Part shown: in pieces, positions 1-64,000 of the stretch
How the letters are laid out: each line of letters starts with the position of its first letter
Position numbering within the stretch: position 1 is the first letter of the stretch
From: Eledone cirrhosa
Lineage: Eukaryota
Direction of reading: 5' to 3'
NCBI GenBank assembly: GCA_964016885.1
Contig: OZ024748.1
Location: 33,542,001 to 33,606,000 of the forward strand
DNA length: 64,000 bases
Program-made: the position numbers and the translations under genes
The notes under the pieces: generated by a model
Told to the model about the DNA's origin: nothing
Database searches by the model: none
The model's input: only the letters and a program-made list of their open reading frames with translations

Positions 1-58
1 TACTAAACACTTTAGATTGTGTTTCGCATTTAATCTTCTTTGTCAATTTATTTTCCAT
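1..58 (-). CDS. 5' end of C2H2 zinc-finger gene copy A (continues off the left edge)
   Basis: Minus strand from the ATG at 58 reads [19 protein letters not shown], matching the N-terminus at 50529 ([19 protein letters not shown]). About 480 bp of upstream sequence also matches 26830-27260 and 50530-50890. Confidence 0.8.
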   Translation of the reverse strand, partial: MENKLTKKIKCETQSKVFS

Positions 59-490
59 AATTATTTCTTCTTCAACAGAATATACAAATGTTTTACTTGT
101 AATATTTTTTATATTATATTTCTTATAAAATATTTCTTCTATATTTTCCTCAACTGTGATTTCAGTTAATATCTGAAGATAATACAAACTTCTTTTACAC
201 CCAAGTTTAGTTAAAATACAAAATCATCTCATAGTGAAGAAAATAAACTCAGTTTTGAGGAAATATTTCACAGTAATATGATGAGAGATTTATATAAACA
301 GTGTCATATAAGTTCTGTTTAGAAAGTTTTAGTCTTAAATTGATGATAAATAGAGGTGATGTATCCAAGATTGAAAATAATAATTTATTCCAATGTCATC
401 TGATATTCTGAAATAAGAAAGAAACAGTATAAGATAATAGAGATCACTTAAAATACAGGGATAGATTTAACAGTGGAAACTTTACATTTT

Positions 491-899: not shown

Positions 900-1265
900 A
901 ATTGTGGTGTCATCTAGTATAGGGCCCCAAAACTGTGGTAACCTTGTGAGATGGGTTTTGCTCAGCTGACTGGCTACCCCTCCCTCCTCATAGTGGTGCC
1001 ACCCAGTACCAGGCCCCAAAACTATGGTAACCTTGTGAGATAGGTTTTGCTCAGCCGACTGGCTACTCCTCCTCATAGTGGCACAGCCAACAGGATCAGC
1101 CCTTCTTGTATCCGTACCATCCAGTACCAGGCCCCAAAACTAAGGTACTCTTGTGAGATGGGTTTGCTGCAGCTGACTGGCCACCCCTCCTCATAGTGGT
1201 GCCACCCAGTACCAGGCCCCAAAATTATAGTTGCACTGTGAGATGGGTTCAGTGCAGCCAACTGG
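900..1265. repeat. Minisatellite, about 85-90 bp unit, about 4 copies
   Basis: Recurrent GGCCCCAAAACTATGGTAACCTTGTGAGATGGG...CCTCCTCATAGTGGTGCCACCCAGTACCA. Paralogous array at 51600-51900. Confidence 0.85.
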
Positions 1266-1453
1266 CCTGTCCCTCCTCATAACAGAGCCATCCAGTTCCA
1301 CACTGTAAACATGGTTCATGTTAGGAAGGGAATCCAGCCGTAAAATACCTGACCAAATTTACAGACCTCGCCTAAGCAAGGTGTGACACATGGCCAACTC
1401 TGGCCAGACTTGCCTCCTGGCATGGATGACCCATCTGACCCATGCAAGAATGG

Positions 1454-1484
<31 letters not shown>

Positions 1485-1920
1485 ACGTTAAATGATGACA
1501 GACATATATATATATATATATATCATCATCATCATCATCATCAACGTTTAACGTCCGTGTTCCACGCTTGCATGGGTTTGGACGGGGGTAGTCCCACTTG
1601 AGGCAAGAGTGATTGTCTTGCTCGCATAGGACTGTCTGGCAGGTTTTCTACAGTTGGATGCCCTTCCTAACACCAACCACATTTACAGTGTGGGTCTGGG
1701 AGGTTTTTACCGTGTTGCCTACACGGCCACATTACAGCGTGGACTGTGTGTTTTTTTGTCGTGACACCTACACGATCTCATTTGTTTCGGCCTCGATGGC
1801 GTGGCACCAACATAACTTTACATAGAACGGGGTGGTGTGGATCGGGTGGGGGTGGTGGTGGTGGGACGGGGTGTATTTTGTTAGAGATGCCTACTGGCTG
1901 GAGTAGGTTTTACTATATAT

Positions 1921-4697
1921 TTAGGTAAGGCGGGTCTTCTCTGTTACTGAGTACCGCCAAAGGTCTCGGTCCAGTGACATTGTCTTGGAGAGGTGTAAGT
2001 GTGTGATGTCGGAGTTTATCAGCTCGTCCCAGGTTTTTCTAGGTCTGCCTATTCCGTGACTACCGTCTATCTTTATTGCCCTGCACTTTGTTATACAGCT
2101 ATCGACTTTCATGCGCATCACGTGTCCATACCAACGTAGCCTTCTCTCGAGTAAACAACATCTGATCCCTCTTATCTCTAATTTTTTCCTTAGTTCGTTT
2201 ATGCTTTGCCGTTCACGTATATTACTGTTACACATCCAGCGGAGCATGCAAGCTTCGTTCCTCTCTAGTCTGCGTATATCCTCTGCACACAATGCCCAGG
2301 TCTCACTGCCATGCAGCATTGCTGTTCGTATGCAGGCATCGTACAACCTGCCTTTCATTTTTAGTGAGAACCCTTTAGCAGCTAATAGTGGTATAAGCTC
2401 TCTGAACTTTTTCCAACCAGTTCTGACTCTAGCTACAGTACTTTCAGAGCACCCTCCACCACTGCTGATTTTATCGCCCAGGTAACGGAAGCTGTCCACT
2501 ATTTCTATAGAACCCTCTGCGCAATTGAAAGAGCTAGTAGTTTGTGGGCACTTGCTGCTACTTATTGCACCAGAGCACCGGCCACATGTAAAATCTATGT
2601 TCTTAGTTAGCTTACCTGTGATCCCACTACATCTTTTATGCACCCATACTTTGCATTTAGGACATAAAATGGAGTTTCTACCTACGCCTTTCCTACACAC
2701 CGAGCACGACCATTTCCCAGAAGGGACCGCCGCCTTGTTTTCTTTCCTACAAACTAGTACTTTGGTCTTAGCCAGGTTAATTTTAAGTCCTTTTGACTCT
2801 AGGCCGTGCTTCCATGTTTGGAATTTCTTCTCTAGCTCGGCCATTGATTCCGCTATGAGTGTCAGGTCGTCTGCGTATAGGAGTTCCCATGGGCAGCCTG
2901 TCTTGAACTCCTCTGTTATAGCCTGAAGGGCAATAATAAATAGTAGTGGACTGAGAACAGAGCCCTGATGGACGCCAACTTTTACGCTAAACTCTTCACT
3001 ATATTCGTTGTTAATTCTAACCTTGCTGACTGTTTCTTTATACATGGCTTGTATAGCCCTCACAAGCCATTCGTCGACGCCTAGTTTTCTAAGAGCCCAC
3101 CAGATAATGGAGCGGGGGACTCTGTCGAAGGCTTTCTCCAAGTCGACAAAAGCTAAGTAGAGGGGTTTACCTTTAGCTAGGTACTTCTCCTGTAGTTGCC
3201 GTACTATGAAAAGAGCGTCTGTGGTACTTTTGCCTGACACAAACCCGAACTGCATTTCATCTAGGTCAATTCTCTCTCTGATTAGTTGCGCTATTACTTT
3301 TTCCGTGACCTTCATGACCTGGTCGATTAATTTAATGCCTCTATAGTTACTCCTATCTAGGGCGTCTCCTTTACCCTTATAACAGTTAACGATGATGCTG
3401 CTATGCCAGTCCTTCGGAACAACCCCATTCTGTACGACTTGGTTAACTATGCGGGTGACCATGGTGTGTCCCACCGTGCCAGATGCCTTCAGCATCTCAG
3501 CAACTATTTCCGAAGGCCCAGCCGCCTTACCAGTCTTCATATCCTTGATTGCCTTACTTATTATACTCCCCTCGACTAACACTGCTGGTCCCTCTATTGG
3601 GTCGATATGGGGGAGACTGCCTTTCTCCCAATTATTCTCCTCATTTAGTAGCCTTTCATAGTGACACTTCCAAGCTACCTTCTTATCAGCGTCGGTGATG
3701 GCAAGTGTGCCATCGTCGTTTAGTACACACTTCTCCCCGACAATATCACGGTTTTCCTTGACGCATTGCCTAGCAATCCTGAACACCTCACGTTTTTGGT
3801 CATCGCGTTGTAGAACATGCTTGAACTTTCTTTCCTCAGCTTCCCTTCTTGCTAAGTACACTTGTCTCCTAGCTTCCCTCCTGGCCACTTGATAGTCCTC
3901 TCTACTTCCCCCATCCCGCCATACTTTCCAAGCCTGCTTTTTGGCCTTAATTGACCCCTCCACCTTACTGTTCCACCACCATGTTACTCTCCTCCTGCCT
4001 ACAGGCCTGCTCCAGCCACAGACCTCGTCTGTCGCCAACAGCAGGTTTGCTTTCAGAAATTCCCACTCTCCCTCTATATTGTCCGACTCTAAATGTTCTT
4101 CCTTACTGTCGAAAGCATCAAGTAATATGCTTTGAAATTTATTCCTGGCTGTGGGGTCCTTTAGCTTCCATATTTTCCTCCTGAGGATAGTCCTCTTCTG
4201 TTGTCGAGTACGTCTCGTCCTGACTATGAGGTCGCTAATTATCAGTCTATGTTGGGAGGTGCATTCTTCATGGGGGAGGGATTTAGTGTTAACAACAGAC
4301 ACTCTGTCACGTCTTCTGGTAAGGATATAATCTACCTGGCTTGTGTGTTCCCCGGATCTATAGGTGATCAGGTGATTGTCACGTTTTTTGAAGTTAGTGT
4401 TACAGATAGTTAGGTTATTTGCATCACAGAATTCCAGGATTCTGGCGCCTTCCTCATTTCTAGTACCAAACCCATAGCCTCCATGGATTTCGTCGTAGCC
4501 GTCACAATGTTGTCCAACGTGACCATTTAGGTCGCCTGCGATAATTATATAGTCACTGTCGGATATTTGGGAGGTAGTTAGCATCAGTGTCTCATAGAAT
4601 CTGTCTTTTATAGTGCCGGGCAGTCCGGATTGGGGTGCGTACGCAGATATTACTGTCACCGTAGTTCTATTGAGGACAAGTCGTATTTTAATTATTC
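1921..4697 (-). CDS. RTE ORF: N-truncated AP endonuclease, reverse transcriptase and internal PHD finger
   Basis: APE motifs SAYAPQ, GDLNGHVG, QVDYIL, SQHRL. RT motifs NYRGIKL, QFGF, FVDLEKAFDRV, GVHQGSVLSP, YADD. C4HC3 finger. RTE C-terminus RLRWYGHV..GRPRKTW. About 920 aa without stops. Confidence 0.92.
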
Positions 4698-4975
4698 TAA
4701 AATACGACTTGTCCTCAATAGAACTACGGTGACAGTAATATCTGCGTACGCACCCCAATCCGGACTGCCCGGCACTATAAAAGACAGATTCTATGAGACA
4801 CTGATGCTAACTACCTCCCAAATATCCGACAGTGACTATATAATTATCGCAGGCGACCTAAATGGTCACGTTGGACAACATTGTGACGGCTACGACGAAA
4901 TCCATGGAGGCTATGGGTTTGGTACTAGAAATGAGGAAGGCGCCAGAATCCTGGAATTCTGTGATGCAAATAACC
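4413..4975. repeat. Perfect inverted repeat: 278-bp arms (4413-4690 and 4698-4975), 7-nt loop ATTATTC
   Basis: Arms read as exact reverse complements, and the ORF track gives the same peptide on both strands. Confidence 0.95.
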
Positions 4976-5239
4976 ATATATATATATATATATATCCCAC
5001 CCACACTGGCATGTAAAAGACACAGCAAAAAGCACCCAGCCCACACTGTTAAGTGGACATGTAGGTGCGTCCACACTGTCAATGTGGTTGGCGTTAGGAA
5101 GGGCATCTAGCCGTAGAAAGCTAGCCAGAAACACCCCTATATGAGTGAGACACGGTCACCTGACCCAAATTGCCTCTAAATGGGACCCGTCTAACCCATG
5201 CTAGCATGGAAGATGGATGTTAATTGATGATGATGATGA

Positions 5240-5424
5240 TATATAATAAAATGTAGTTTCCTTGAAGCATTATATATAATATATAATGTTGAAAGAGGTA
5301 GAAGGCTAAACAATGCAAAATGGACTGTAAGATGAGGTAAGGAAAAGTGAAAGTTACCTGGTAATATTTGTTTTGTTTTTTTATTGTCCAATATTGCGAG
5401 ACCTAAAAGTCCTTTCTTCAGGGT
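5240..5424 (-). mobile_element. Penelope-like pLTR remnant with a decayed minimal hammerhead
   Basis: Minus strand CC-CTGAAGA-AA-GGAC-TTTTAG-GTCT-C-GCAA-TATT-GG. The paralog at 52653-52684 retains GAAA. Confidence 0.5.
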
Positions 5425-11287: not shown

Positions 11288-11849
11288 TTCACAGAAGTCA
11301 AATAAATTAATAGAAATAATTTTTACCACATATTGATGGTGAGTTGGTTTCAACTCCCAGACTGGAGCGTGTAGAGAAGAGAGAGAGAGAAAGCAGAGAT
11401 CTTCTCTTGGTAAGGTTGAAGTCGTTCTTTTCAGCTGCGGCGTAGGAAGTGAGAGAGAATTGCCTCACGTTCTCAAATATATAGTCCCCATGGGGACGTA
11501 ACTCCATTTAGTACATGGATGTACCACTAGGGGTCACGACCGTCGCAAAGGGACGCAACTCTTATCCGTTCTGAGATCCTCGCAAAGGGGCGCAAGTCTT
11601 ATCCGTTCTGAGTTCCAGCCGTAAGGGGGTCGTTACAGTACCTTCCTCCAGACAATAGGCGAAAAGCCCGAAGGTAATAGTAGCGAACCCACAAGCATGG
11701 GCTCCCAGCACAGGCATGAAATATTAACGAAAAGGTACATGTATACATAGTTCAATACAATAAAGAGAAAAACAAATAAAAAGGCTCCAGTGGCCAGTTC
11801 ACATAAAAACAGTTTGGCAGAGTTTTTTGGGCCAGTGGATCTTCGACCG

Positions 11850-14800
11850 GAACGGGTCGTGGTCTTGTATGTAGGTGAAGGTGGGGAAGAAGGAGCAGGT
11901 GTATGCACAAGAGAGAAAGATTGGGGTATTTGTGGCTCCGGTGTATGAGCGTCATTGTAAGACCTTTTTAGTATATCCACCGAAATTGTCTCTCTGGACC
12001 CCTTAATGTCTACTGTGAAATGTTTGTCAGTACGTGCTAACACACGGTAGGGTCCAGAGCACGGCTGTGTGAGGGGTGGAGTAACGGCGTCGTTTCTGAC
12101 GAATATATGTGTCCACGAGGCAATATCCCTCGGGACTGCAGCTTTAATAGTTTGTTTCCTAGTATTCATGGGCGGTAAGTCCTGAAAATAGGAGCGCAAA
12201 CGAGATATGTAGGAAAGAGGGTCCTGAAAAGCAAGATCAACAGGAGCAAGCATTTGCCCAGGCAACGCTAGAGGAGCACCATACAGTAATTTGGCCGGGG
12301 AGAACCCAAGGTCCTGCTTTATTGATGACCGAATTCCTAACAACACAATAGGAAGGTACTCGCTCCAACGTTGAGAGTCTGGATAGGCGCGAAGAGCGGC
12401 CTTTAATTGGCGGTGGAATCGTTCCACCATTCCGTTCGAAGCAGGATGATAAGCTGTGGTCCGAATCCGTTGAGTACCAATGATCTTTGTCAGCTCCGAG
12501 AAGAGATGAGAGTCAAATTGTCTACCACGGTCTGTGTTGACTGTTGTTGGCATGCCAAAGCGAGTAATCCACCCTGATACCAGGGCACGCGCTATAGTCT
12601 CAGCACTGATGTATTTTAAGGGGATGGCTTCAGGCCATCGCGAAATACGATCGATGCAGGTCAAGAGGTAAGAATATCCACTACTCAATGGCCAAGGTCC
12701 AACGATATCAATGTGGATGTGTTGAAACCGAGCATCTGGAGTACTGAAAGTACCAAGTGGAGTCCGGATGTGTCTGTGGACTTTAGATCTCTGACACTGT
12801 GTGCAGGAACGGCACCAAACAGTAATTCTCGCCTCATTGGGCCAGAAAAATCTAACCGTTATGAGCTTTACTGTGGCTGAAATTCCTGGGTGAAAAATGC
12901 TGTGCAAAGCAAGGAACACAATATGACGGTGAGTCTCAGGAACAGAAGGTCATGGTGAATCCGTAGATACATCACATAGAATCTGCCTGCCGGTGGTCGA
13001 CAAGGGCAGATATTTGAAGATGCAAGTCGCAAACTCGGCAGAAAAAGTATCCAACGATTTGAGTGCAGGTTGGTCTGCAGCTAAACGACTTAAGTCGATC
13101 TCCTGGGATGACAAGACGGAGCTGATTGGCAAACGTGACAATGCGTCTGCAGCTATGTTAAGCGAGCCAGCAATGTGCTGGATATCATTTGTAAATTGCG
13201 AAACGTAATCCAGGTGCCTTGTCTCTCTGGGTGAATATCTGTCGGCTTTAGCCCTCAAAGCGAAGGTCAGAGGTTTGTGGTCAGTTAAAACAGTAAAATT
13301 TCTCCCCTCAAGAATATGAGAGAAATGGTTCACCGACAGATATATGGCTAATAATTCCCGCCCAAACGTGCTGTAACGCGTTTCTGCTGGTTTCAGCTTT
13401 CTTGAGAAAAATGCCAAAGGTTTCCAGCGTTGTACTGCTGTAAAACTGCCCTCACAGCGGTATCAGATGCATCAACACAAAGCGAAAGCTTGACCTCTGG
13501 TACCGGGTGGGATAGCAAAGATGAACTAGCGAGTGCTCTCTTGGCAGCTGTCCTTGTGTCAAGGAAATATCCTCATTCTTCTTACGACGATTTTTCAAAA
13601 TGTCAGTAAGGGAAGATAGCAAATTAGCATAATGAGGAACGAAACGCCTATAGAAATTGATTAGGCCTAAGAAGTGACGCAACTGGTGAAGTGTAGTAGG
13701 CGGAGGTAAATCCTGTATGGCTTGAACTCGCTGGAGAAGCGGCCTAATACCTTCGGCGTCGATGAGGTGGCCTAAAATATTGAGCGAAGTGGAACCGAAA
13801 TCACACTTTGCGGGATTCACACGAACGCGGTAATCCTGAAGTTGCCGAAATAAAAGATGCATGTGGTGCATATGCTCTTCCGGGGAGGAACTAGCGACGA
13901 GAAGATCATCTATGTATGCATAAACGAAGTCCAGACCACGAGTGACTTCGTCTATGAACCGCTGAAAAGTGCTAGCGGCGTTCCTGAGTCCGAAAGGCAT
14001 GGTAAAAAATTCGAAGGATCCGAAAGGAGTTGTGATCGCCGTTTTTGGAATATCCTCCTTCCTGACCGGAATTTGGTGGTAAGCTCGCACTAAATCTAGT
14101 TTTGAGAAAATCTTACACCCCTGCAATGAAGATGCGAAATCCTGGAGATGGGGAATGGGATACCTATCCGGGACGGACATAGCATTTAACCTCCTATAAT
14201 CCCCAGTGGGTCTCCAGTCGCCAGAAGTCTTGGGCACCATGTGTAATGGTGAAGCCCAAGGACTCGTAGATGGGCGAATAATGCCCAGCTGCAGTATATG
14301 GTCGAGCTCGGACCGTGCTGCCTTTAATTTGTCCGACGGTAAGCGGCGTGGACGCGAAAATACTGGAGCACCGGTGGTGGAAATGAAATGTTCAGTTGAG
14401 TGGGTTGGCTCAGTGACTCGCAAATTTCCATCGGTGAGCTCCGGGAAAGAATCTAACAACGAATGGTAGGCGTCTCCAGCGGCAGCGATGAAGAATATGG
14501 GGCTAACTGTTGGAGATTTGGCTTTCCGGCCACGAATTGAAAAACCGGTGATGTCATCCAAAAGGCGTTGGCCACGGACGTCCACAGTCAAAGAGAAGTT
14601 GTGGAGCAAATCCGCTCCTAAGATAGGGTATGGCAAATCGGCAACCGTAAAAATTCACTTAAAATCCCTACGAAGATTTAGGAATTTGAGAGGAGGCGAG
14701 ATTTGTCCGTACGTCGTTATAGACGAGTGATTAACGGACTGCAGAGTAACGGATGACTCTACGGGGGTATCTTTCAGGCAATGGACCGGCTAAATACTAC

Positions 14801-14900
14801 AGGAGGCTCCTGTATTAACGAGGAAACCTCTTCCCGACATAAGGTCCTTAATGAAGAAATGGCGGTTTGGTGGCTTTATGTTGAAGTCAACTGCCTCCAT
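11850..14900 (-). pseudogene. pol: Outer Gypsy pol (protease, RT, RNase H, integrase), frameshifted
   Basis: [56 protein letters not shown] and TRSGR, spread over several frames. Confidence 0.9.
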
Positions 14901-15712
14901 CAGCGGGCCTCTTTGGCGTTTCCCGCCTTATGAAACGAGCAAGGTTGCACGCAGTGGTTCACGCTCTCGGCAAAAAGCTCGTGGTACCAGCCTAAAGATG
15001 AAGCTGATGACCTGGGGCGGCGTCTAAAAGAGTGAGATCTCCCACGGTTGCGCGAGCGCGAACGGGCACCACACCAGACTTTCATCTTCTGGAGCTCCAG
15101 GGTGAGTTCTTGAATGGCCTTCTGCATCGCCATAATGGCTGAGCTGTCTGTAGGAGCTGCCGCGCAGATGGCTTGGCCAGGTGTGACCTGAGCTGGTTGG
15201 GAAACAGCGGCAAGGGCTTCGCTGCCTCCAGCACCCGTGACTTCAAAACTTTGTCCGCAGAGGCGGCAAGCTGATCAACTGTGCAAGTGTCCCTAATGGG
15301 GGCCAAAATTGCCTGTACGTTGTGGGTAGGCGTGAGAAGAACAACTGCTTCAACATTGCAGATTCCGCTACCGACCCCTCCGTTAGGTCATTCATTCGCC
15401 TTAGGAGGTTCGATGGGGTGCCATCACCGATATGCTCCAGGTGGACCAGAGCCCTAAATCTTTTCTCTGCGGACTGTGCAGTCCGGCTGAGTATTTCAGC
15501 CTTCAGAGACTTGTACGTCGCGTCGGTGGATGTATCTAACACCAGGTCCTTAATCGCTGGGATAAGTGCCGGCGGAATTGCACTAAGGCCTAGGGGACGT
15601 TGTTGTGCTTCGTCGATTCTGTTCCCTCGAAAAATGCTTCGATTTGGGCGAACCATGACCTTACGTCGCCCGTGTACGTAGGTAAAACAGAATGAGATGC
15701 CATTGGTATACC
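14900..15712 (-). pseudogene. gag: Outer Gypsy gag, frameshifted
   Basis: GDGTPSNLLRRM..QLFFSRLP. Degenerate CHCC knuckle (G)WYH..F..VNHCVQPC. Homologous to 19887-20651. Confidence 0.8.
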
Positions 15713-16757
15713 GTAGGTAATCTGCTAAAAATTGTCTCAGTTCGGAAAAATATCTCCAACACAAGACAAAAAGAAAACAAAATCGCTTGTCAACTGGGCA
15801 GGAAAAAGAATGCACCCGAGAGAATATGTAAAGGAGCGACTAACGGAGCAATGTCATTAATAAGGTATAGGCGGCGAATTTAAAACAAAAATCAATATGG
15901 CGGACGATTTCGCGCCAAAAACACTTTTGATGGAGAAGAAAACCGCCATCTTGTCATCCTCAAACATTTTAGCCAGAGAAAAGAAGAAAAGAAGAAAAAA
16001 CATTCATACAATTGTTGTCTTGCTAGGAAGCTAGCAGCAATATCATCTTATTTTTTTTTTTTTTCTTGTGTTTAGTGTTCGGCCAGACCCATGATTATTT
16101 ACTTGAGTAAATATCACCGGAATCTAACTACTAAATTTTATACAGAAAATGATAAGATATATACAAAACACCATAACGAATACAAGTCTTCATTTTATTA
16201 TAACTCCGTTATAATTGTTGTACACAAATATCCTCGTACATATTTAGGTATAGTCTAAGCCCGTGATTAACATGTTCATCTTCAGTGTTGTCGGTTCGAA
16301 GGAAAGGCGCCAAAGAGAGAAAGAGCTGGCTGTGTTGCCGCTATTTATAACCTCTTTCCGGAAGTTGCAAAAGAGGGTTCTAGGCTTTCGACGGGAAGTA
16401 ACTCTAACTACTTCCCTGTCTAGAGAGCGCTACAAGACTCCCCTCTCAGACGACAAGTCGAATGACCAAATGAAATCATTGTAGCGAGAACATGAGGAGC
16501 AAAGCAAAAGGTACAAGAACATGAATGTATAAAACATGAGCAAGCAAATAGCAAAATGAGCATAAAACAAGTAATGCATTTTTACAAAGAATGTTTGAAT
16601 GTAACGAATGATAAATCATAGTCATACAAAGGAGCAGAGAATATTGATGCTCAATGGTAAAATCAATGTTTTTCAAAGTCAAATAGTTCATACATCACTA
16701 GTGTACAGACTTTTCTGACACTAGTTCTATCTGAAAACTGAAAAAAGAGGAGGTATG

Positions 16758-19700
16758 TTAATGCCACTGGGGTTTAATATATATTGTTTTTGAGAGTTTT
16801 CGTGGCCATTTTACCGACCTGCCACTTCGTGTGACATAAGGTTGTGTGGTATGTGGTGTTTGCGGTGGCGGTGAAAGTATTGGTGTAGGAGTATATGTAC
16901 GAGGTGTATCAGGCAGTGTGATGAGCCTTTCGGAGAAAGCCTTTTTTGCTCTGTCAATCGATATTGTCTCTTTTCGATTATTGACAGCCACTGTGAAATG
17001 TTTGGGTGTGTGCAAAAGCACACGAAAAGGTCCATTACAAGGTGACGTAAGAGGTCCCTTGACGGAATCATTCCGTATGAAAACGTGTGTCCACGTAGAG
17101 ATGTCCGATGGGACAGCAGAAGAAATAGATTGGTCACGAGGGTTCATCCGTGGAAGATCCGAGAAATACGAACGAATCCTGGGTCAAGATGTAATGAATC
17201 CACTGGTGCTAACATTTGTCCAGGAAGAGACAATGTGGCACCATAAAGAAGTTCAGCGGAAGAAAAACCTAAATCTGTCTTAATGGCAGCACGACAACCA
17301 AGAAGCACGATAGGCAAAAATTCAGTCCAACGTTGTGGATCAGGAGTAGCGCGAAGTGCAGTTTTTTAACTGTCTATGAAACCTCTCTATCATTCCATTG
17401 GAGGCTGGGTGATAGCTGGTCGTATGGATGTGATGAGCACCCAAGAGTCGTGATATTTCACGAAATAAGGAAGCCTCAAATTGGCGCCCACGATCCGTAG
17501 TTATTTTAGTAGGAACACCGAAACGAGCAATCCAATTGGAAATGAAAGCTCGGGCAATGGACTCTGCTGTTATGTCCATGAGGGGTATAGCTTCAGGCCA
17601 CCGAGAGAAACGATCGATACAAGTCAATATGTATGTGAATCCACGACTAACGGGCCATGGACCAACAATATCCATGTGTATATGACGGAAACGTGCGTCT
17701 GGCGGGCTGAATTTCCCAAGAGGAGCGCGGATATGCCGCTGAGTCTTAGAGCGCTGACACTTCAAGCAAGAACGTGCCCAACCGATTAAACGACGCATAT
17801 TAGGCCAGAAGAATGGAGCCGTAATAAGCTTCACCGTGGCAGCTATGCCAGGATGTGACAAGGAATGAAGTGCATCAAAAACGGTACGCTGATGACAATC
17901 TGGAACAAGTGGTCTGGGTGAGCCAGTAGAAACATCGCAGAGAATTTTCCCTTCAGAAGATGGAAGAGGTAAATATTCCAATTTGCAGCAGGAGAACTGG
18001 TCAGAGGAAATGTCCAGCGATTCCAAAGTAGGTTGTTCAGTTGCAATGGCAACTAAATCGATATGTGCAGGAGACACAAGAGAACACACAGAAAGTCGAG
18101 GTTATTTTGGAAGTTCCGGCTATGTGACGAATGTCACTGGTATACTGTGGATGAGATCCAGATGCCTATACGCTCTCGGAGAGTACTTGTCGGACTTAGA
18201 TTGTAAAGCGAACGTTAACTGTTTGTGGTCCGTGAATATCGTGAACTCCCGCCCCTCCAAAAGGTGGTGGAAATGCTTCACGGCAACATAAATCTCCAAA
18301 AGTTCTCTGTCAAAGGTGCTGTATCTCTGTTCTGCTGGTTTTAATTGGCGAGAGAAAAATGCCAATGGTTGAACTTGGCGATCGATTACATGATGCAAAA
18401 CTGCGCCAACAGCACGATCAGATGCATCAACAGAAAAGGAAAGTCTCGCATTTGCAACAGGATGGGCAAGGAAAGAAACTTTAGCTTGCTCAGACTTGAC
18501 GGATTTAAAAGACTGCAATGCATCGGCAGAAAGTGAAATTTTTTCATCTTTCTTTTTTGCAGCTCTTAAAAACTGTGCCAAGGGGAATAACTTGTCCGCA
18601 CAGTTAGGAAGAAAGCGACGATAAAAGTTAATTAATCCTAAGAAGTGGCATAATTGTTTCAAGGATGTTGGTGGTGCTAATTGCTGAATCGCCTCTACCT
18701 TAGATGGCAAAGGTCGTATGCCTTCTGAATCTATAAGGTGTCCGAGGAATTCCAGTGAATCTGCACCAAACACACATTTAGCTGGGTTGATTCTGACTTT
18801 GTACGATTGGAGACGTTGAAATAACTGAGATAGATGTTGATGATGGTGATCATCCGAATCACTGGCTATCAGGAGATCATCAACGTAAGCAAACACGAAA
18901 TCCAATCCACGCGTGACTTCATCGACAAAACGCTGGAACGTACTTGAAGCATTCCGAAAACCAAAAGGCATGGATAGGAATTCAAACGAACCAAAAGGGG
19001 TGGTCACAGCTGTTTTGGTATGTCTTCCGGATGCATGGGTATTTGATGGTAAGCGCGTACCAGATCTATTTTAGAAAATATCTTGCATCCATGCAGAGAG
19101 GAAGAAAAATCCTGTAAATTTGGTAGAGGATAACGATCAGATGTTGTGATAGCGTTAAGTCGTCTATAATCACCTACAGGTCTAAAATCCGCTTCACCCT
19201 TACGAGTCAAATGAAGCGGAGATGCCCATGGGCTGGTGGACGGTCGTAAAAGACCAAGCTGAAGCATGTGATCGAACTCATCCCTGGCTTGTTTTAGCCT
19301 GTCTGTAGCCAGCCTACGTGGCCGAGAAAAAACAGGCGGAGCAGTTGTTGTAATAAAATGTCGAGTCGAGTGGATTACTTGGTTCGGTTTAAATGAAATG
19401 TCAGTTAACTCGGGAAACGAGGCAAGAAGAGAATGAAACTGGTTTCCAGAGGCAGCTACGAAACACGCGGGACTTGTGGTGGCAACAATAGAACCATGAG
19501 CAGGCGTAGATAAAGATGTGGTGCCATCCACAAGTTTCTGTTTCCTGACATCTACTAACAGTGAGTAGTGGTGTAACAAATCCGCACCGAGAATAGGGTG
19601 GGGTAGGTCTGCTACAACGAAAAAACATTTGAAATCCCGACGCAAAGCTAGGTCCAATGATAGAGATATTTGTCCATAAGTTTTTATAGGAGACTGGTTT

Positions 19701-19860
19701 ACTGCATACAAGGAAATACCTGAAAAATTTGGCTTGGTACAGCTGAAACGAAGTGGCCAAAAACTGCAGTTAGAACCTGTGTCGACCATAAACGATTTGT
19801 TTGAAATTCGATCTTTTATAAAAAAAAAAAGGCACGGCAAGGAGAATTAATGGTGGAGAG
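16758..19860 (-). pseudogene. pol: Inner Gypsy pol, frameshifted
   Basis: Protease FMVDTGS, RT YVDD, RNase H VDAS..TDHK, integrase [22 protein letters not shown] and TRSGR. Confidence 0.9.
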
Positions 19861-19886
19861 ATCTGCCGTGCCCAGATTCTCCAGGT

Positions 19887-20654
19887 TTAGTTTTCCGAAG
19901 TCCCGAAAGAGCAGGGTTGAATGCAATGATTCGCCTTTTCACGAAAACGCACGTGATACCAACATAAAGACGAGTCGTTGGCGGGGGTTTTGGCGCGACG
20001 ATGAAAAGAAGAACCACTTCGTGGGCGCCATCTGAAATGTGTTCGTTCTCGACACAGTTTAGTCAATGGACGAGTTAGCACGTCAATGGCTCTCAATATA
20101 GAGTCCTCACGGGGTGGAACAGACTGTGCTTTAAGAGTAGCAGAAGCAATGTGTGGATCTGCCGAAGTAGGTACTCGATAAAATTCCATTATGCGGTCCA
20201 CTGAGGCTGCAATTTGGTCCAGAGAACTAGTGTCGACTATATTTGCCAGTATGGTCTGCACATTTGTTGGCAAACGGGAGAAGAATAATTGTTTTACGAA
20301 AGAGTTATCCTCTGCTGTTGAGTCGCTCAATTCTCGGATGCGCCGTAAAAACTGGGACGGAGTTCTATCTCCCAGGATTTTCTCCTCCAACAAGAAACGA
20401 AATTTGCTCTCAGACGAACGACTGTTCCGTCTGAGCACTTCTGCCTTAAGGGTCTCGTAAGTGACGCCTTGTGGGGGATCGGTGATGATATCCTTTACTG
20501 ACACGGCGAGCGAGGCAGGGATTCCGCTTATGAGCACGTGTAACCTCAGTTGTACCGCTTGGACGCCATGTGCAACAAAAAAATACGAATCTAGTTGTGC
20601 AAACCACAACTCTGCATCACCTGAATACGTCGGTAGCGAAGAATTACTCATCAT
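19887..20654 (-). CDS. gag: Inner Gypsy gag
   Basis: Open frame with the CHCC knuckle CWYHVRFREKANHCIQPC typical of the CsRn1 clade. Confidence 0.85.
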   Translation of the reverse strand: MMSNSSLPTYSGDAELWFAQLDSYFFVAHGVQAVQLRLHVLISGIPASLAVSVKDIITDPPQGVTYETLKAEVLRRNSRSSESKFRFLLEEKILGDRTPSQFLRRIRELSDSTAEDNSFVKQLFFSRLPTNVQTILANIVDTSSLDQIAASVDRIMEFYRVPTSADPHIASATLKAQSVPPREDSILRAIDVLTRPLTKLCRERTHFRWRPRSGSSFHRRAKTPANDSSLCWYHVRFREKANHCIQPCSFGTSEN

Positions 20655-22239
20655 GAATGTAGTAGCCGCTGGGTGAAATGTTCTCTTTTTTAAATTTTTT
20701 TTATTTTTTTTTTTTACTTGCCGCACATGTGGTTTAACTTCCGTGAATCAGGCAATGACAACACATTTCAAAGAAAATTAGTTGTATTTTCAAAAGATAT
20801 ATACGCACGTGGTGGTAAGATGAATGGTTGAAGTGATGTAACACGGAGGAAGCAAAATGGCGGATACAAAAACGAAGACACGAGGTGCAAACATTTTTTT
20901 TTCTTTTTTTTATGCGTATCCGGGAATTATCATTTTTTTTTTTTTTCGTTGGTGTTTCTGTACGTCGAGTCACCATTTTAGTGTTCTGCCAGACCCAGGA
21001 TTATTTACTTGAGTAAATATCACCGGGATCTAACTACTAAATTTTATACAGAAAATGATAAGATAGATTTACAAAACACCATAACGAATACAAGTCTTCA
21101 TTTTATTATAACTCCGTTATAATTGTTGTACACAAATATCCTCGTACATATTTAGGTGATTAACATGTTCATCTTCAGTGTTGTCGGTTCGAAGGAAAGG
21201 CGCCAAAGAGAGAAAGAGCTGGCTGTGTTGCCGCTATTTATAACCTCTTTCCGGAAGTTGCAAAAGAGGGTTCTAGGCTTTCGACGGGAACTACTTCCCT
21301 GTCTAGAGAGCGCTACATGTATATAAATAAATGGAATGTTCGCTTTGCACATATGAGGAGTTTGATTGTTAAATGTTTCAGATAAAGATGCTGAAATCAG
21401 TAAAATACAGCCAGATCAGAATGAAGCGTGTTGTTCTGTATTAAATGTTTTTTTCTTTCTTTTTTTATATATAGACATAATACGGTTTCCTTTTTTTTTT
21501 TCGGTGTCACCAATTTAGAATATTAGTATCAGTGCATATATATTATTAAAAATGACAATAATTGCAGCTATGTGTTGTGACATAGTTGTACTTCACAGAA
21601 GTCAAATAAATTAATAGAAATAATTTTTACCACATGTTGAGGTGAGTTGGTCTCAACTCCCAGACTAGAGCGTGTAGAGAAGAGAGAGAGAAAGCAGAGA
21701 TCTTCTCTTGATAAGGTTGAAGTCGTTCTTTTCAATTGCGGCGTAGGAAGTGAGAGAGAATTGCCTCACGTTCTCAAATATATAGTCCCCATGGGGATGT
21801 AACTCCATTTAGTACATGGATGTACCACTAGGGGTCACGACAGTCACAAAGGGATGCTTAGTTTACGGATGTGACACTAGGGGTCACGACCGTCGCAAAG
21901 GGACGCAACTCTTATCCGTTCTGAGTTCCTCGCAAAGGGGTGTAACTCTTATCCGTTCTGAGTTCCAGCCGTAAGGGGTCGCTACATTCTCACGCTCCAC
22001 ATAAAGGCGTATTATCTTCGCTTTTATCCGTCCATTGCCAGGGAACGTCTTCACGAACCAAAGTATTGTCTTCCTGTTTTCCTTCGGTTGTAAAGTTTTT
22101 CGAAATATTTACTTCTGCGTTCATAGATTGATTTTTTTAATTTCAGAAGATCCTGTTAAGGGTGAAAGCAGTGATTCTTATATTAGATAAAAGAATATAA
22201 TATATACGTGTATATTCATATATTGTATTTATTCTCATC

Positions 22240-25090: not shown

Positions 25091-25404
25091 ACGTACATAT
25101 ACACATACACATACACAAATAAATCAAATACAAATATGCACAAATATACAAACACAGATACAAAAATATACACGGACATAAATTTCTACACACATACATT
25201 CACATATATATAACGTATGTAAATTCTGCACCATACAGTTTTGTCAGCACAAGTCTTGGCTACAACTTCTACATATAAAATGAAAGGAGAACAATTTCTT
25301 AGTAAAACAGTTGTATTCAAATTATTAACAACATTGGTGGCACTATTTTGGGTGAGTGATATGATTTTTATCTTGTCTGATTGTGTTTTATTAAGTAATC
25401 TTTA

Positions 25405-26038
25405 CAAGAGAATGATTTATCCCTGACATCAAAGTGATATGGTTCCTCTCCTGTATATGTTAGTGTGTAGTGAAGGCACAACATTTAGAGAATGATTTAT
25501 CACAGACATCACATTGATATGGTTCCTCTCCTGTATATGTTAATGAGTAGGGAAGCCACAACATTTACAGAAGGATTTACCACAGACATCACAGTGATAT
25601 GATTCCTCTCCTGTATATCTTAGTGTGTAGTGAAGCCACAACATTTAGAGAATGGTTTACCGCAGACATCACAGTGATATGGTTCATTTCCTGTAAATGT
25701 TAATGCCGAGTGAAGTGACTTATTTCAGAGAATCACAGTGATATGGTTTCTCTCCTGTATATATATGTTTGTATGTAGTTAATGTAGCAATGAAAGAGAA
25801 TGATTTCTCCCCAATGTGGTATGTCTTCTCACTCATATGAATGTATTTGTGTTTAATTAATTCACCATTTTGAGACAATGAGATATGACTTTGTTAAGGT
25901 TTGTCACCTGTATGGGTATATTTGTGTCTAGTTAAACTACTTGAAACGGTGAATGATTTACCACTGATATCAGTGATATGGTTTCACTCCTGCATGGGTA
26001 CGTATGTGAGAAGTTAATGTACCACTTGATGAGAACGA
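25405..26038 (-). pseudogene. Decayed C2H2 finger repeats downstream of the ZNF B stop
   Basis: About 83-bp units resembling TGEEPYHCDVCGKSF, with frameshifts and stops. Confidence 0.75.
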
Positions 26039-26827
26039 TTAACCACAGGCATCACAGTGATATGGATTGTCCCCTGTATGTATACATTTGTGAATAGGTA
26101 AATGACTACTTACAAGGAATGATTCACTACAGATATCATATTGAAATGACGTGTCTCCTGTATGTATACGTTTATGCTTAATTAAGCTACTGCTTTGAGA
26201 GAATGATTCACCACAGATATCACAGTGATATGGCTTGTCTCCTGTATAAGTACGTTTGTGAGAAGTTAATATACTACTTCGAGAGAATGATTTATCACAG
26301 ATATCACAGTGGAATGGTTTCTCACTTGTATGGGTACGTTTGTGAGAAGTTAATGTACTACTTTGAAAGAATGATTTACCACAGATATCACAGTGATAAG
26401 GCTTGTCTCCTGTATGTATACGTTTGTGGGAAGTCAAGTGACTACTTCGAGAGAATGATTTACCACAGATATCACAGTAGTATGGCTTCTCACCTGTATG
26501 GGTACATATGTGAGACATTAATGTACCACTCTCTAGGAATGATTTACCACAGATATTACATGGCTTCTCACCTGTATGTATACGTTTGTGTCTAGTTAAG
26601 GTACTACTAACAGAGAATGATTCACCACAGATATCGCAGTGGTATGGTTTCTCACCTGTATGGGTACGTATGTGTTTAATTAAAGTATCTGATGCAGAAA
26701 ATGAGTTGTTACAGAAATCACAGTGATATGGCCTCCCTTCTCTATTCTTTGACATCTCTTCTGGAGTAGCCATATCTTTAGACAATGTTTCACATTTAAT
26801 CTTCTTCTCACTCAATTTATTTTCCAT
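26039..26827 (-). CDS. Tandem C2H2 zinc-finger protein copy B (262 aa, about 7-8 fingers)
   Basis: Repeated CxxC-x12-HxxxH with TGEKPY/TGDKPY linkers. One finger has lost a Cys, one has lost a His, and the last is cut by a frameshift stop. Confidence 0.9.
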
Positions 26828-27464
26828 GTTTCTTCTTCCCTTGGCAGAATTTACAGATGTTATTCTTGTCTTATTTTTTATATTATATTCCTGAAGATAT
26901 TTCTTCTGCTATATTTTCCTCAACTGTGACATCAGTTAATATCTGAAGATGATACAAACTTCTTTTTCATCCAAGTTTTGTTAAAAATCAAAATCATCTG
27001 ATAGTGAAGAAAATGAACTCAGTTTTGAGGAAATATTTCACAGTAATTCGACGACAGATTTATATAAACAGTGTTATATGAGTTCTGTATAAGACATTTT
27101 AGTCTTAAAATTATGGTAAATAGAGGTGATGTATCTGAGATTGAAAATAATAATTTATCCCAATGTCATCTGATAGTCTGAAATAAGAAAGAAACAGTAT
27201 GAGATAATAAAGAATTCTTAAGAAGCAGGGATAGATTTAACAGTGGAAATTTTATGTTTCTATATTGATAAACTGTAGATATCAACTTTCCTGTCCAGAG
27301 CAATTCTCTCCAATGTAAGCAGTGGTAATCAAGCATGTTCTATAAATTATATCCTTCTATCTCTTGGGAGGTCTACTCTATGGCAGTTTAGCATAAATTT
27401 TTGTAGAATTTTCTAACATAGCTATCATCTCCTCTCCTAGTGACATGTCAACACGAGTTTAACA

Positions 27465-48905: not shown

Positions 48906-49224
48906 ACATATACGTACATATACGCACATACGCAATCAAATACAGATATGCACATACGTATATACAAACACAAAAACATATACATGGACATAAAATTCTA
49001 CACACAAACATTCACATATATATGGCGTGTGTAAATTCTGAACGATACAGTTTTGTCAGCAAAACTCTTGGTTACAACTTCTACAAATAAAATGAAAGGA
49101 GAATAATTTCTCAGTAAAACAGTTTTATTCAAAACATTTACAACATTGGTGGCACTATTTTAGGTAAGTGATATGGTTTTTATCTTGTCTGATTGTGTTC
49201 GTGTTGCATCAAGTAACATTTACA

Positions 49225-50574
<1,350 letters not shown>

Positions 50575-51349
50575 TTAAAAATTATATTCCTAAAAAATAT
50601 ATCTTCTATATTTCGCTCAACTGTAATTTCAGTTAACATCTGAAGATAATACAAACTTCTTTTTCATCCAAGTTTAGTTAAAATACAAAATCATCTCATA
50701 GTGAAGAAAATAAACTCAGTTTTGAGGAAATATTTCACAGTAATTGTACGACAGATTTGGTATAAACAGTGTTATATAAGTTCTGTTTAAAAAGTTTCGG
50801 TCTTCAAATGATGATAAATAGAAGAGATGTATCCAAGATTTTAAATAATAATTTATCCCAATGTCATCTGATATTCTGAAATAAGAAAGAAGCAGTATCA
50901 GATAGCTAGTCAATGTCCGATGGGAATATCTTCTATTTTTTATATGTTATGACTCCATTGAAATAACTGGAAGTTATTGGTAGTGTATGCATTGGTTTCA
51001 GAGTAAAAACGACAGAGCTTATCAACGTAACAATTGTTTTATACAGAATACTTAAGAAGATAATACAGAATACTTAAGAAGCAGAGTTAGATTTAACAGT
51101 GGAAATTTTATATTTCTATATTGATAAACTGTAGATATCAACTTTCTGACCAGAGTGATTCTCTCCAATGTAAGCAGTGGTATTCCAGCATGCTATATAA
51201 GTTATATCCTTCTATCTCTTCGGAGGTCTGCTCTATGGCAGTTTAGCAAAAAATTCATTCTTATAGGACTTATAAGAAAGAAACAGTATGAGATAATAGA
51301 GAATACTTAAAATACAGAGATAGATTTAACAGTGGAAATTTTACATTCC

Positions 51350-51900: not shown

Positions 51901-52682
51901 TGGCCTGTCCATCTCATAACAGAGCCATCCAGTTCCACACTGTAAACATGGTTGTTGTCAGGAAGGAATGCAGCTGTAAAATACCCAACCAAATTTACAG
52001 ACCTCACCTGAGCCATATGCGACACATGGCCAACCCTGGCCAGACTTGCCTCCTGGCATGTATGACCCGTCTAACCCATGCAAGAATGGAAAAATGGACG
52101 CTAAATGGTGATGATACATACATATATATATATATATTCCACCCACACTGGACGTGTAGAAGACACAGCAAAAAGCACCCAACCCACACTGTAAAGGGGA
52201 CACATAAAAGACATGGCAAAAAGTACCCACCCCACACTGTAAAGCGGTCATGTAGGTGTCATGGGAAAATGCACCCAGCCAACACTGTAAAGTAGACGTG
52301 TAAAAGACAGCAAAAAGCACCCAGCCGAAATGTTGTTGGCGTTAGGAAGGGCATCCAACCATAGAAAGCTAGCCAGAAACAGCCCTATATTAGTGAGACA
52401 CGGTCACCTGACCCAACTTGTGTCTAAATGGGACCCGTCTAACCCATGCTAGCGTGGAAGATGGACGTTAATTGAAGATGATGATGATATATAATAAAAT
52501 GTAGTTTGTTTGAAGCATTCTATATAATATATAACGTTGAAAGAGATAGAAGGCTAAACAATGCAAAATGGACTGTAAGATGAGGTAAGGAAAAATAAAA
52601 GTTACCTGGTAATCTCTGTTTTGTTTTGTTTTGTTGTTGTTCTTTTATTTGTCCAATATTTCGGGCCCTAAAAGTCCTTTCT

Positions 52683-61166: not shown

Positions 61167-64000
61167 TCTCTTCTCTCTCTATATAAAACTGAAGATGTCT
61201 GTCTGTGTGCGTGTATGATGTTTATGCATTTCCACATTTCTCTACCAATTTTGATGGTTCTTTTTCCAATGCGCTCCAAATTTACCGAGGATGGTCCACG
61301 CGATATAAACTTTGCCAAAAATGTTCTGCTTCCATGAAAAAAATCGATAAAACTAAATACATGCTCTAACTCTCTCTTGCCGCCTCAACTGCTGCGTCAC
61401 GTGCTGGTGAGGACGAAGGGCAGCGTTCCAGAAGCCGACGTACAGACGCCGCTACTTGAATCTCAACGAAGACATTATATTTTGTTGTTGTCCTTTTTGT
61501 AATTTTTTTTCTTTCTTTTTAGCAATATCAGAAAAAAAGTAATATAAATATTCTCATAAAAAAAAAATAACGATTTTGATGATTTTTTTCCAGTGTGCTC
61601 CAAATTATCGCCCTTGTTTACGCTCTTTTGTGCTATAACTCAGATGTGCTTGGCTTACAGGTTTGACCTACTATTTAACGCGCATTCTTGCTACATCTTA
61701 CTTAGTACTCATTTTCCACTTATTCACTCTTCAATTGAAATTACCTGCATAAATATTAACGTGTTTAATTAGTACTTCCTATTTCCCTTTTGAAACTTAC
61801 CTTTAAAACATACTTTGACACTACGGTCATGCCCCCCCCCCCCCCCAAAAAAAAAGACCACGGCTTAGTGGCCAAACTAAAGCTGCTTCTGCTGCCAAAC
61901 AAAGAAGAGCTGCAGAGTCGTCGCTCGAGAATTTGACTCGGTTGTCACAAAATGCAACTCGAAATGCAATTACTCGGTCAACCGAGACAGAAGAAGAGAG
62001 GAGCATTCGCCTTTCCCGGAATGTATTTCTAACTGCAGTTGCACGTGCAGCGCAAACTGATGAACAATATTCTCGACGACGAAGCAAAAATGCGGCCTCC
62101 ACTGTTGCAGCGCGTACTGGTGAGGATGAAGAACAGCGTTCCAGACGACGTGGAAGAGATGCCGCCTCAACTGCTGCGTCACGTGCTGGTGAGGACGAAG
62201 GGCAGCGTTCCAGACGCCGCCGTACGGACGCCGCTTCAACCACTTCTGTGCGCGCGTCAGAGACTGCGCAAATTCGATTACACAGACTAAACGCCAATGC
62301 ACTCCGCAGGAGTGCTCAACGAGGTTCTCCGAGGGTCAGTTGTACTCAGTGGTCTCATAAGGCTTTCCACTATGACCCAACAGTTAACTATGCACTGCTG
62401 CCAGAAGTTCAGATTGGATCCATGTCCGTCATTTGCCAATCTTGCCGGGCAAAGAAATGACCTGGGGAGACTTCAGGGATGTGCTGCTCTGACGGCAAAT
62501 TTTGCTGTTATAATCGACGCCGACAGGAAACCACTAGGTTCCCACGCCGGCCGTTTTAACGCTCCCATGTGCAATGAAATAGCTGTGCTTCTTCATGGAG
62601 AACAGTACAACAAGCGGGATATCATACTTCAGTGTAGGGACAATAGTCTGCAACGGATCAGCGAGACGCATAGGTCCTACGACGCATTCCAATATCCCCT
62701 TCTTTTCCCATTCGGTGATGACGGATACCACTTTGGAATTCCTTTGTGCAACAGCAACAAAACTGTTTCCTGTATGCAATTCTACGCCTACCGATTCATG
62801 GTCCGCGAAGGCTGCTTTAACCACCTCCACCGTGCAAGAGTACTCTTCAACCAACTTGCTGTAGACACGTGCGCAAAGATGGAATCTGAAAGGCTGTGCT
62901 ACATAAGGAACAATCAAGCACGCCTTCGTTCGGACAGCTACATTCACTTACGGGATGGAGTAAGGAATGACGTCGATCCCGAGAACCTAGGAAAACATTG
63001 TATCCTTCCGTCGACCTTCATTGGGAGTCCCCGATACATGAGTGAACGCACACAGGATGCTATGACTTACGTGCGTCTCTATGGCAGACCGGATCGCTTC
63101 ATCACTTTAACTTGCAGCCCTAAGTGGACTGAAATTACAGCGGAATTATTCCCCGGACAAAGAGCGGCAGACAGACACGACCTTACTACACGAGTACTTA
63201 CTACTTGAAATTGACAAAACTTATTGAACTCATACAATCAGGTAAGGCCTTTGGACCTGTTAGGTGCTACGTATACACCGTTGAGTGGCAAAAGAAAGGC
63301 CTGCCACACGCCCACCTACTCATTTGGCTAATAACGAAAATCAACGCAACCAGCATTGACAGCATTATTTCAGCAGAAATATCCAACCCGAAATTGGACA
63401 GAGAACTCCACAACATCGTCACTGCTCACATGGTTCACGGGCCATGCGGAAACGGTTTCAACATGAATTCGCCATGCATTAAAGAAAGAAGGTGCACCAA
63501 GAGGTATCCAAAGCCATTTCTCCGAGAAACTCAGACAGGTGGCGACGGTTACCCATTATACCGCCGCAGGGACCCAGCGGACGGAGTAATTGTTGCGAAA
63601 ACCCCACATCCCCACATCGACAACCGGTGGATTGTACCCTACTGCCCACTTCTGCTTAAAATGTTTAACGCCCACATTAACGTGGAAAACTGCCACTCCG
63701 TCAAATCAATAAAGTACGTCTGCAAGTACATCAATAAGGGGTTCATTGCTGCGTCCTTCGGTCTTACAATGGAGAACAGCCGAGATGAAATCACTCGATG
63801 CCAGGTCGGCCGATACATCAGCAGTAATGAAGAGTTCTGACGATTCTTCCACTTTGCAATACACCATAACTATCCCCCAATAAAATAGTTGGCGGTGCAC
63901 TTTGAAAACGGTCAAAGAGTCTACTTCACCGCCTCTACCGCTGCTGAGATAGCAGAGGAACCTAAGGACACCATACTTACGGCATTTTTTAAGTTATGCC
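61167..64000 (+). mobile_element. Helitron (5' part; runs off the window)
   Basis: A|TC start (TCTC..TCTATATAAAA) close to where similarity to paralog A ends. A RepHel coding remnant follows. Confidence 0.85.
61829..64000 (+). pseudogene. Helitron RepHel (N-terminal repeats, Zn-binding motif, HUH Rep domain) with stops and frameshifts
   Basis: C..C.AK...E..G.CC..G, ISETHRSYD..QYPLLFP.G, LPSTFIGSPRYM, FITLTCSPKW, VEWQKKGLPHAH, MVHGPCG, KYVCKYINKG. Confidence 0.9.

What the first reader, a model, noticed from the sequence alone, without database searches (positions are those of the whole stretch)
4413..4975. Young RTE ends in a perfect 278-bp snap-back hairpin
Seen: the + strand (first-strand cDNA sense) reaches ...TTTTA-ATTATTC-TA, then copies itself backwards for 278 nt and rejoins the (TA)n target. 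The paralogous empty site near 52130 shows the flanks are otherwise intact. Known: classical LINE twin priming inverts upstream sequence rather than duplicating a long stretch already copied. Inference: the cDNA 3' end self-primed on a 2-bp TA match, giving a fossil of hairpin-primed second-strand synthesis. Such perfect palindromes are unstable, so the event is probably recent, consistent with the intact ORF. It would yield dsRNA against the active family.
Basis: partly seen in the sequence, partly recalled or inferred. Interest (0 to 1): 0.7.

Follow-up and report, generated by a model that had tools for sequence, protein, structure and literature searches.

The report
Snap-back scar at LINE 5' end
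A young, front-truncated jumping gene ends in a perfect 278-base mirror copy of itself, likely made when its fresh DNA copy folded back and primed itself during insertion; eight other insertions of the same family carry a shorter version of this scar, which is already known from laboratory insertions.

Summary
The palindrome is in the assembly: arms 4413-4690 and 4698-4975 (100%), 7-nt loop, at the 5' end of a truncated RTE-like LINE flanked by an exact 22-bp target-site duplication. Two paralogous sites are empty. The loop and T4698 are element-templated; A4699 is not, so the priming match is 1 bp, not 2. The ORF is unbroken but lacks its first 131 codons. Both arms carry an allele seen in 1 of 37 other copies, so arm 2 was copied from this lineage. 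The hairpin is not intrinsic: it occurs once in the assembly, and 0 of 63 sampled junctions fold back. Thirteen genome-wide palindrome scans found eight more terminal fold-backs (arms 13-49 nt, loops 6-16 nt, 0-3 nt microhomology), roughly 1% of junctions by a hand estimate. This matches the published 'snap-back' 5' junction of engineered R2 insertions, and this scan noted similar scars in other genomes. Only the arm length stands out. No raw reads test the locus; one public sample showed no apex-bridging contig (inconclusive). dsRNA is untested.

The parts
1503..1524 (+). Left copy of the target-site duplication, C(AT)10C; its last base overlaps the element's (CAT)n tail
   Evidence: Identical to 4975-4996
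1524..1543 (-). Short tandem-repeat 3' tail of the LINE, (CAT)6 on the + strand
   Evidence: Sequence; copies start at the same point
1524..4698 (-). 5'-truncated RTE-like non-LTR retrotransposon copy
   Evidence: Collinear with other copies at 97-100%; nearest 2 mismatches in 1,899 nt
1921..4698 (-). Remainder of the single ORF (925 codons plus stop): partial APE endonuclease, RT, PHD-like finger; first 131 codons missing
4413..4690 (+). Arm 1: element-collinear cDNA-sense sequence, template for the copy-back; carries minority allele C4446
4691..4697 (+). 7-nt loop, element-templated in the sense of arm 1
   Evidence: 28 of 28 copies read the same loop and then diverge after 4698
4698..4975 (+). 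Arm 2: inverted copy of arm 1; T4698 is the last templated cDNA base (1-bp priming match), C4975 is shared with the target (1-bp junction match); G4942 mirrors C4446
4975..4996 (+). Right copy of the target-site duplication
52110..52145 (+). Paralogous empty (AT)n site in a duplicated zinc-finger gene unit
1..424 (-). Context: acceptor-like sequence ending at 408 and the start (ATG at 58) of a C2H2 zinc-finger reading frame that runs left out of the window; the LINE lies 1.1 kb upstream in the same sense
   Evidence: splicing not shown

Best explanation
This is a single recent target-primed insertion of an RTE-like LINE whose first-strand cDNA likely stopped at 4698, folded back on itself through one A:T pair and a 7-nt loop, and was likely extended 278 nt on its own cDNA before being joined to the other target end. 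Shown: the geometry, the templated loop, the exact TSD, the empty paralogous sites, the shared minority allele and the recurrence of the junction type in the family. Inferred: the order of events, and that the whole insert was then filled in and ligated by host repair. The enzyme is open: I favour a processive polymerase (the element's own RT, or a replicative host polymerase) for this long arm and repair-type snap-back (Pol theta-like; typical tract lengths recalled, not from a call) for the 13-49-nt arms. It is an insertion accident with no function shown.
For: Exact 22-bp TSD with the palindrome ending precisely at it. Loop templated and hairpin absent from other copies. C4446/G4942 in both arms versus 1 of 37 unbiased copies. 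Eight further terminal fold-backs among 27 places from 13 scans (dissected in 41, 61). Apex microhomology of at least 1 nt in 8 of 9 events including the window (7 of 8 by script; L135 read by eye; P about 4e-4 if chance is 0.3). Loop reads in the sense of the tail-bearing arm in 8 of 9 (P 0.02 against 50:50). The four wide-gap scans gave 4 places, none a single-copy event with a large spacer. No twin-priming-type inversion beside a 5' end in 118 loci. Same anatomy as R2 snap-back junctions (PMC11371274, PMC11204384, passages).
Against: No raw read or long read of this locus was seen. The cDNA end has no favourable pre-formed hairpin (-0.7 kcal/mol, z 0.5) and 1 bp is a weak primer. L145 has its loop in the opposite sense, which fits twin priming or later spacer inversion. 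The nine short-gap scans select for small loops by design; only four scans looked wider. No private RT error lies in the arms, so cDNA-templated copying is not proven against re-reading the same RNA. 278 nt is more than five times the longest other clean arm (49 nt).
Confidence: 0.76

Rival explanations
1. Overlapping twin priming: the upstream target end primed a second cDNA on the same RNA at the position of 4413, both cDNAs ran to nearly the same (broken) RNA end, and were joined end to end through 1 bp.
For: Gives the same final sequence and the shared C4446. L145 has the loop belonging to the flank-attached arm. Microcomplementarity joins the two cDNA ends in L1 (10.1101/2024.08.27.596794, section 4 part 1).
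Against: Needs both cDNAs to end within 8 nt of each other. L1 twin-priming duplications are short (median 22 bp) and invert upstream RNA. No ordinary twin-priming inversion seen in 118 loci. Loop sense 8 of 9. Only 1 nt of match at the flank junction.
Confidence: 0.1
2. Assembly or library artefact (fold-back chimera).
For: No read-level support obtained. A fold-back read would also keep the loop and the allele.
Against: The inversion stops exactly at the TSD and the sequence returns to the forward flank, matching two empty paralogs; a read chimera has no reason to. Short-armed events of the same anatomy recur.
Confidence: 0.07
3. Post-insertion repair or replication template switch: a break in a longer or ordinary copy folded back, copied 278 nt and rejoined.
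For: Internal fold-backs where the element continues exist in the family (L138, L140), as do palindromes with (TA)n loops (L132, L139). Small-hairpin inverted duplications form at resected ends (10.1101/2024.12.14.628481, passages).
Against: It would have to rejoin exactly at the TSD boundary without losing a base; the copy is very young.
Confidence: 0.05
4. Two transcripts: arm 2 came from a second RNA or a second insertion.
For: Head-to-head pairs of separate copies exist (L146, L148).
Against: Arm 2 has no tail or TSD of its own, ends 8 nt from the end of arm 1's cDNA, and carries an allele found in 1 of 37 copies.
Confidence: 0.02

Closest known systems
Snap-back 5' junctions of R2-protein (PRINT) insertions in human cells (PMC11371274, PMC11331408, PMC11204384; passages and figure legends read, figures and supplements not seen)
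   Same: cDNA 3' end primes synthesis on the cDNA itself; the antisense segment is then joined to the upstream target; a minority junction class.
   Different: Here a natural, assembled germ-line-type insertion of an APE-type RTE-like element in a (TA)n target with a TSD. I could not see the arm lengths or rates of the R2 events, so I cannot say whether 278 nt is unusual there.
L1 insertions with small-hairpin inverted duplications (10.1101/2024.12.14.628481; passages)
   Same: Short microhomology (2 bp) at a small hairpin primes an inverted duplication; TSD preserved.
   Different: The examples read duplicate genomic DNA at the reciprocal end; here the element's own cDNA end is duplicated.
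L1 twin priming (10.1101/2024.08.27.596794; section 4 part 1 and passages)
   Same: 5'-truncated element with an inverted segment at the 5' junction and a TSD.
   Different: Twin priming inverts RNA upstream of the breakpoint with short deletions or duplications (medians 14.5 and 22 bp); here the inverted part wholly repeats sequence already copied.
Active single-ORF RTE LINEs of octopuses (10.1101/2021.01.24.427974; passages)
   Same: Single ORF with endonuclease, RT and a zinc-binding finger; very young copies.
   Different: No sequence comparison was made; the resemblance is a lead.

Membership tests
Snap-back 5' junction (R2 PRINT category) | [quoted passage not shown] | tested here: met
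Snap-back 5' junction (R2 PRINT category) | The antisense segment is joined to the upstream target DNA | tested here: met
   Arm 2 abuts the right TSD copy
Snap-back 5' junction (R2 PRINT category) | Template was the cDNA, primed by its own 3' end | tested here: inconclusive
   Shared minority allele, templated loop, family-level microhomology and loop sense fit; no private RT error in the arms; L145 is flipped
TPRT insertion of a non-LTR retrotransposon | 3' tail, 5' truncation and TSD relative to an empty site | tested here: met
Classical twin priming | Inverted segment derives from RNA upstream of the breakpoint, with only a short overlap | tested here: not met
   Arm 2 lies wholly within sequence already copied
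RTE clade | Single ORF with APE endonuclease and RT; short tandem-repeat tail (definition recalled) | tested here: met
   Pfam RVT_1, Exo_endo_phos_2, PHD; about 1,056 aa from first Met in long copies; (CAT)n tail
RTE clade | RT phylogeny groups with reference RTE elements | not tested
   No tree built; Atlas look-alikes are unnamed RT/endonuclease/PHD clusters
Intrinsic terminal hairpin of the element | Shared by family copies | tested here: not met
   1 place in the assembly; 28 of 28 other copies continue linearly
dsRNA / endo-siRNA source locus | Transcribed through both arms; small RNAs or A-to-I editing on the arms | not testable with these tools
   No RNA run listed

The most novel reading that the evidence does not exclude
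Self-priming is a regular minor exit from TPRT in a natural germ-line LINE family: some 100-200 of about 25,000 copies would be snap-back fossils, long arms such as this one being made by the element's own RT copying DNA. That would make the genome a natural data set on who extends the cDNA end, and this hairpin, if it lies in a zinc-finger gene intron, a perfect 278-bp dsRNA against the youngest sub-lineage.
Probability: 0.25. Interest if true: 0.5.

Novelty: new member of a known kind. Interest (0 to 1): 0.27.

Why it matters
How non-LTR 5' junctions and second strands form is called undefined in PMC11371274 (discussion passage). Snap-back is documented there for engineered R2; this locus and eight others show the same outcome in a natural APE-type family, with measurable loops and microhomology. 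One locus does not settle the enzyme. It also shows one way that long, break-prone palindromes arise (loops under 9 nt are Mre11 targets in yeast; PMC8053094, abstract).

Tried and rejected
Reads: Logan contigs of X1-X4 on 1200-5400 were swamped by family copies; my first reading of their 'differences' as another species was wrong, since several are family-majority alleles. On the apex (4650-4745) no listed contig of X1, X2, X3 or X8 bridged 4691-4698 (36 pieces not shown); the individual is unknown and contigs show presence only, so this is inconclusive. No RNA holder listed. One wide gapped pattern could not be run, so the family survey covers only 13 narrow windows. Places dropped from the count of clean events, 18 of 27: nine in older related 3'-UTR-like repeats, not dissected (L122, L124-L131); two with (TA)n loops (L132, L139) and one nested (L133); two internal (L138, L140); one complex (L144); three pairs of separate copies (L146-L148). 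L142 and L143 are tandem duplicates counted once. Direct sample: 118 loci, 63 resolved, 42 ending in the 5' UTR array, 13 running off; a few of the 63 are duplicates or internal deletions. 'Perfect means recent' rejected as an argument: a 338-nt perfect palindrome of another repeat sits in L097 and template switching can homogenise arms (PMC8604942, abstract). PMC2718515 has no snap-back terms. Searches for natural-genome reports listed none besides the R2 and L1 papers named; the library lacks most subscription papers.

Full report
Observation. The repeat finder gives arms 4413-4690 and 4698-4975, 278 nt, 100% complementary, 7 nt apart. They sit at the 5' end of a minus-strand non-LTR element that runs from a (CAT)n tail at 1524 to 4698. 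Its frame encodes part of an APE endonuclease, an RT and a PHD-like finger. The insert is flanked by C(AT)10C on both sides, identical over 22 bp. The flanks match an empty site near 52,130 and a second empty site in the neighbouring unit left of the window. These units are tandem C2H2 zinc-finger gene repeats.

All 28 best-matching copies read through the loop and T4698 and then go on with G, not A (54 of 55 in a wider pool continue TGTCGTTC). The templated priming match is therefore one pair, T4698:A4690. The 961-codon frame includes 36 codons from the inverted arm, and long copies have 131 more residues from their first Met, so this copy is unbroken but truncated. Recency rests on the exact TSD and on 2 mismatches in 1,899 nt to 5 of 28 best-hit copies; the nearest of 36 unbiased long copies differs at 11 places in 3,175 nt.

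Not intrinsic. A pattern for this apex has one place in the 3.0-Gb assembly, the window's own. Exact motifs count 25,442 copies at window position 1968, 10,529 at 2261 and 2,070 at 3836. Of 118 loci examined, 63 had a resolved end outside the 5' UTR array and none folded back (longest reverse match 7 nt, like the control; 95% upper bound 4.6%). None of the 118 showed a twin-priming-type inversion at its 5' end.

Recurring class. I scanned the genome with a conserved 11-mer, a gap and its reverse complement. Nine short-gap scans gave 10, 3, 3, 2, 2, 2, 0, 1 and 0 places; four wide-gap scans gave 1, 0, 3 and 0. Of these 27 places, nine are clean terminal fold-backs, eight events since L142 and L143 are tandem duplicates: L123, L134, L135, L136, L137, L141, L142/143, L145. 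Arms are 29, 44, 15, 30, 13, 18, 27 and 49 nt; loops 6-16 nt. Most rejoin (TA)-rich target, and L141 shows a TSD-like match of about 45 bp by eye (28 exact by script). The other 18 places are listed under Tried and rejected. Six events fell in eight short-gap scans of the ORF, each covering about 15 apex positions; with roughly 700-1,500 junctions in those windows (hand extrapolation from the counts) the rate is of order 0.5-1%. The window's arm is the longest clean one seen, though it was chosen for being long.

Mechanism. Both arms carry C4446 (mirror G4942), found in 1 of 37 unbiased copies, so arm 2 comes from this sub-lineage and almost surely this molecule. Apex microhomology is 1, 1, 2, 3, 0, 1, 2 and 1 nt in the eight events the script resolved, window included, and 2 by eye for L135. 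The loop reads in the sense of the tail-bearing arm in 8 of 9. Both fit a cDNA end folding on itself. Against: L145 is flipped, which fits twin priming or later spacer inversion (PMC8604942, abstract); short-gap scans favour small loops; the free cDNA end has no stable hairpin; and no private error in the arms separates copying of cDNA from re-reading of RNA. The copy-back ended after 278 nt and remained part of the first strand, so it is not the element's second strand. The enzyme is inferred only.

Artefact. No read-level test succeeded. The exact return to the forward flank at the TSD argues against a chimera.

dsRNA. The element lies 1.1 kb upstream of, and in the same sense as, an acceptor-like sequence at 408 that precedes a 563-codon zinc-finger frame and recurs at 27,178 and 45,868. 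It may be intronic, so read-through is plausible but unshown. Inverted pairs of family copies of 680-1,830 nt at 94-95% occur in 3 of 60 loci (L088, L100, L102), so this hairpin would not be a rare source.

Known. PMC11371274 defines snap-back junctions, in which the cDNA 3' end primes synthesis on the cDNA before joining upstream target (passages); PMC11331408 and PMC11204384 repeat the category (passages). L1 work reports small-hairpin inverted duplications of flanking DNA (passages). Figures and supplements of these papers were not seen and may hold arm lengths and rates. My searches listed no survey of such junctions in natural genomes. Earlier notes of this scan describe the same scar for CR1, L1/Tx1 and Rex1 copies in other genomes (unchecked).

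Verdict. A real, young insertion scar of a described kind, with an unusually long arm, in a family where it recurs at a low rate. New member of a known kind; interest 0.27.

Noticed in passing
L132 and L139, near base 1500: 5' junction followed by (TA)n and then a 25-37-nt inverted copy of the element: fold-back with the microsatellite as loop, so it happened after the cDNA had reached target sequence.
   Followed up: partly
L138 and L140, near base 1500: Internal fold-backs: an 18-32-nt inverted copy replaces part of the element, which then continues.
   Followed up: partly
L145 1500-1605: Terminal fold-back (49-nt arms) whose 9-nt loop reads in the sense of the flank-attached arm; candidate twin-priming join or spacer inversion.
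   Followed up: partly
L122, L124-L131: Older related 3'-UTR-like repeats fold back repeatedly at one spot with an intrinsic short inverted match; possible hot spot.
   Followed up: no
L003-L121 junctions: Most resolved 5' junctions abut (TA)n-rich sequence; a run of copies on C1 near 7.7-9.5 Mb instead sits in one short tandem repeat. RTE insertion signatures are treated in PMC6007223 and PMC13295347 (search listing only).
   Followed up: no
L005, L097, L101 beyond window-equivalent 5300: Long copies carry a variable tandem array of about 470-500-nt units at the 5' end.
   Followed up: partly
L097 6213-6550, L099 2406-2754, L119 631-1078: Unrelated long palindromes beside (TA)n (338 nt at 100%, its relative at 94%, and 449 nt at 97%); possibly a palindromic MITE-like repeat.
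   Followed up: no
window 11,633-15,839 and 17,340-20,747 (-): Two LTR-retrotransposon-type elements (RT, RNase H, integrase, DUF7041), each split over several frames.
   Followed up: no
window 25,400-26,908 and 49,200-50,900 (-), L151 3-686 and 7533-9224: Tandem C2H2 zinc-finger gene units, about 80-93% alike.
   Followed up: partly
window 62,291-63,205 (+): Helitron helicase-like N-terminal domain.
   Followed up: no
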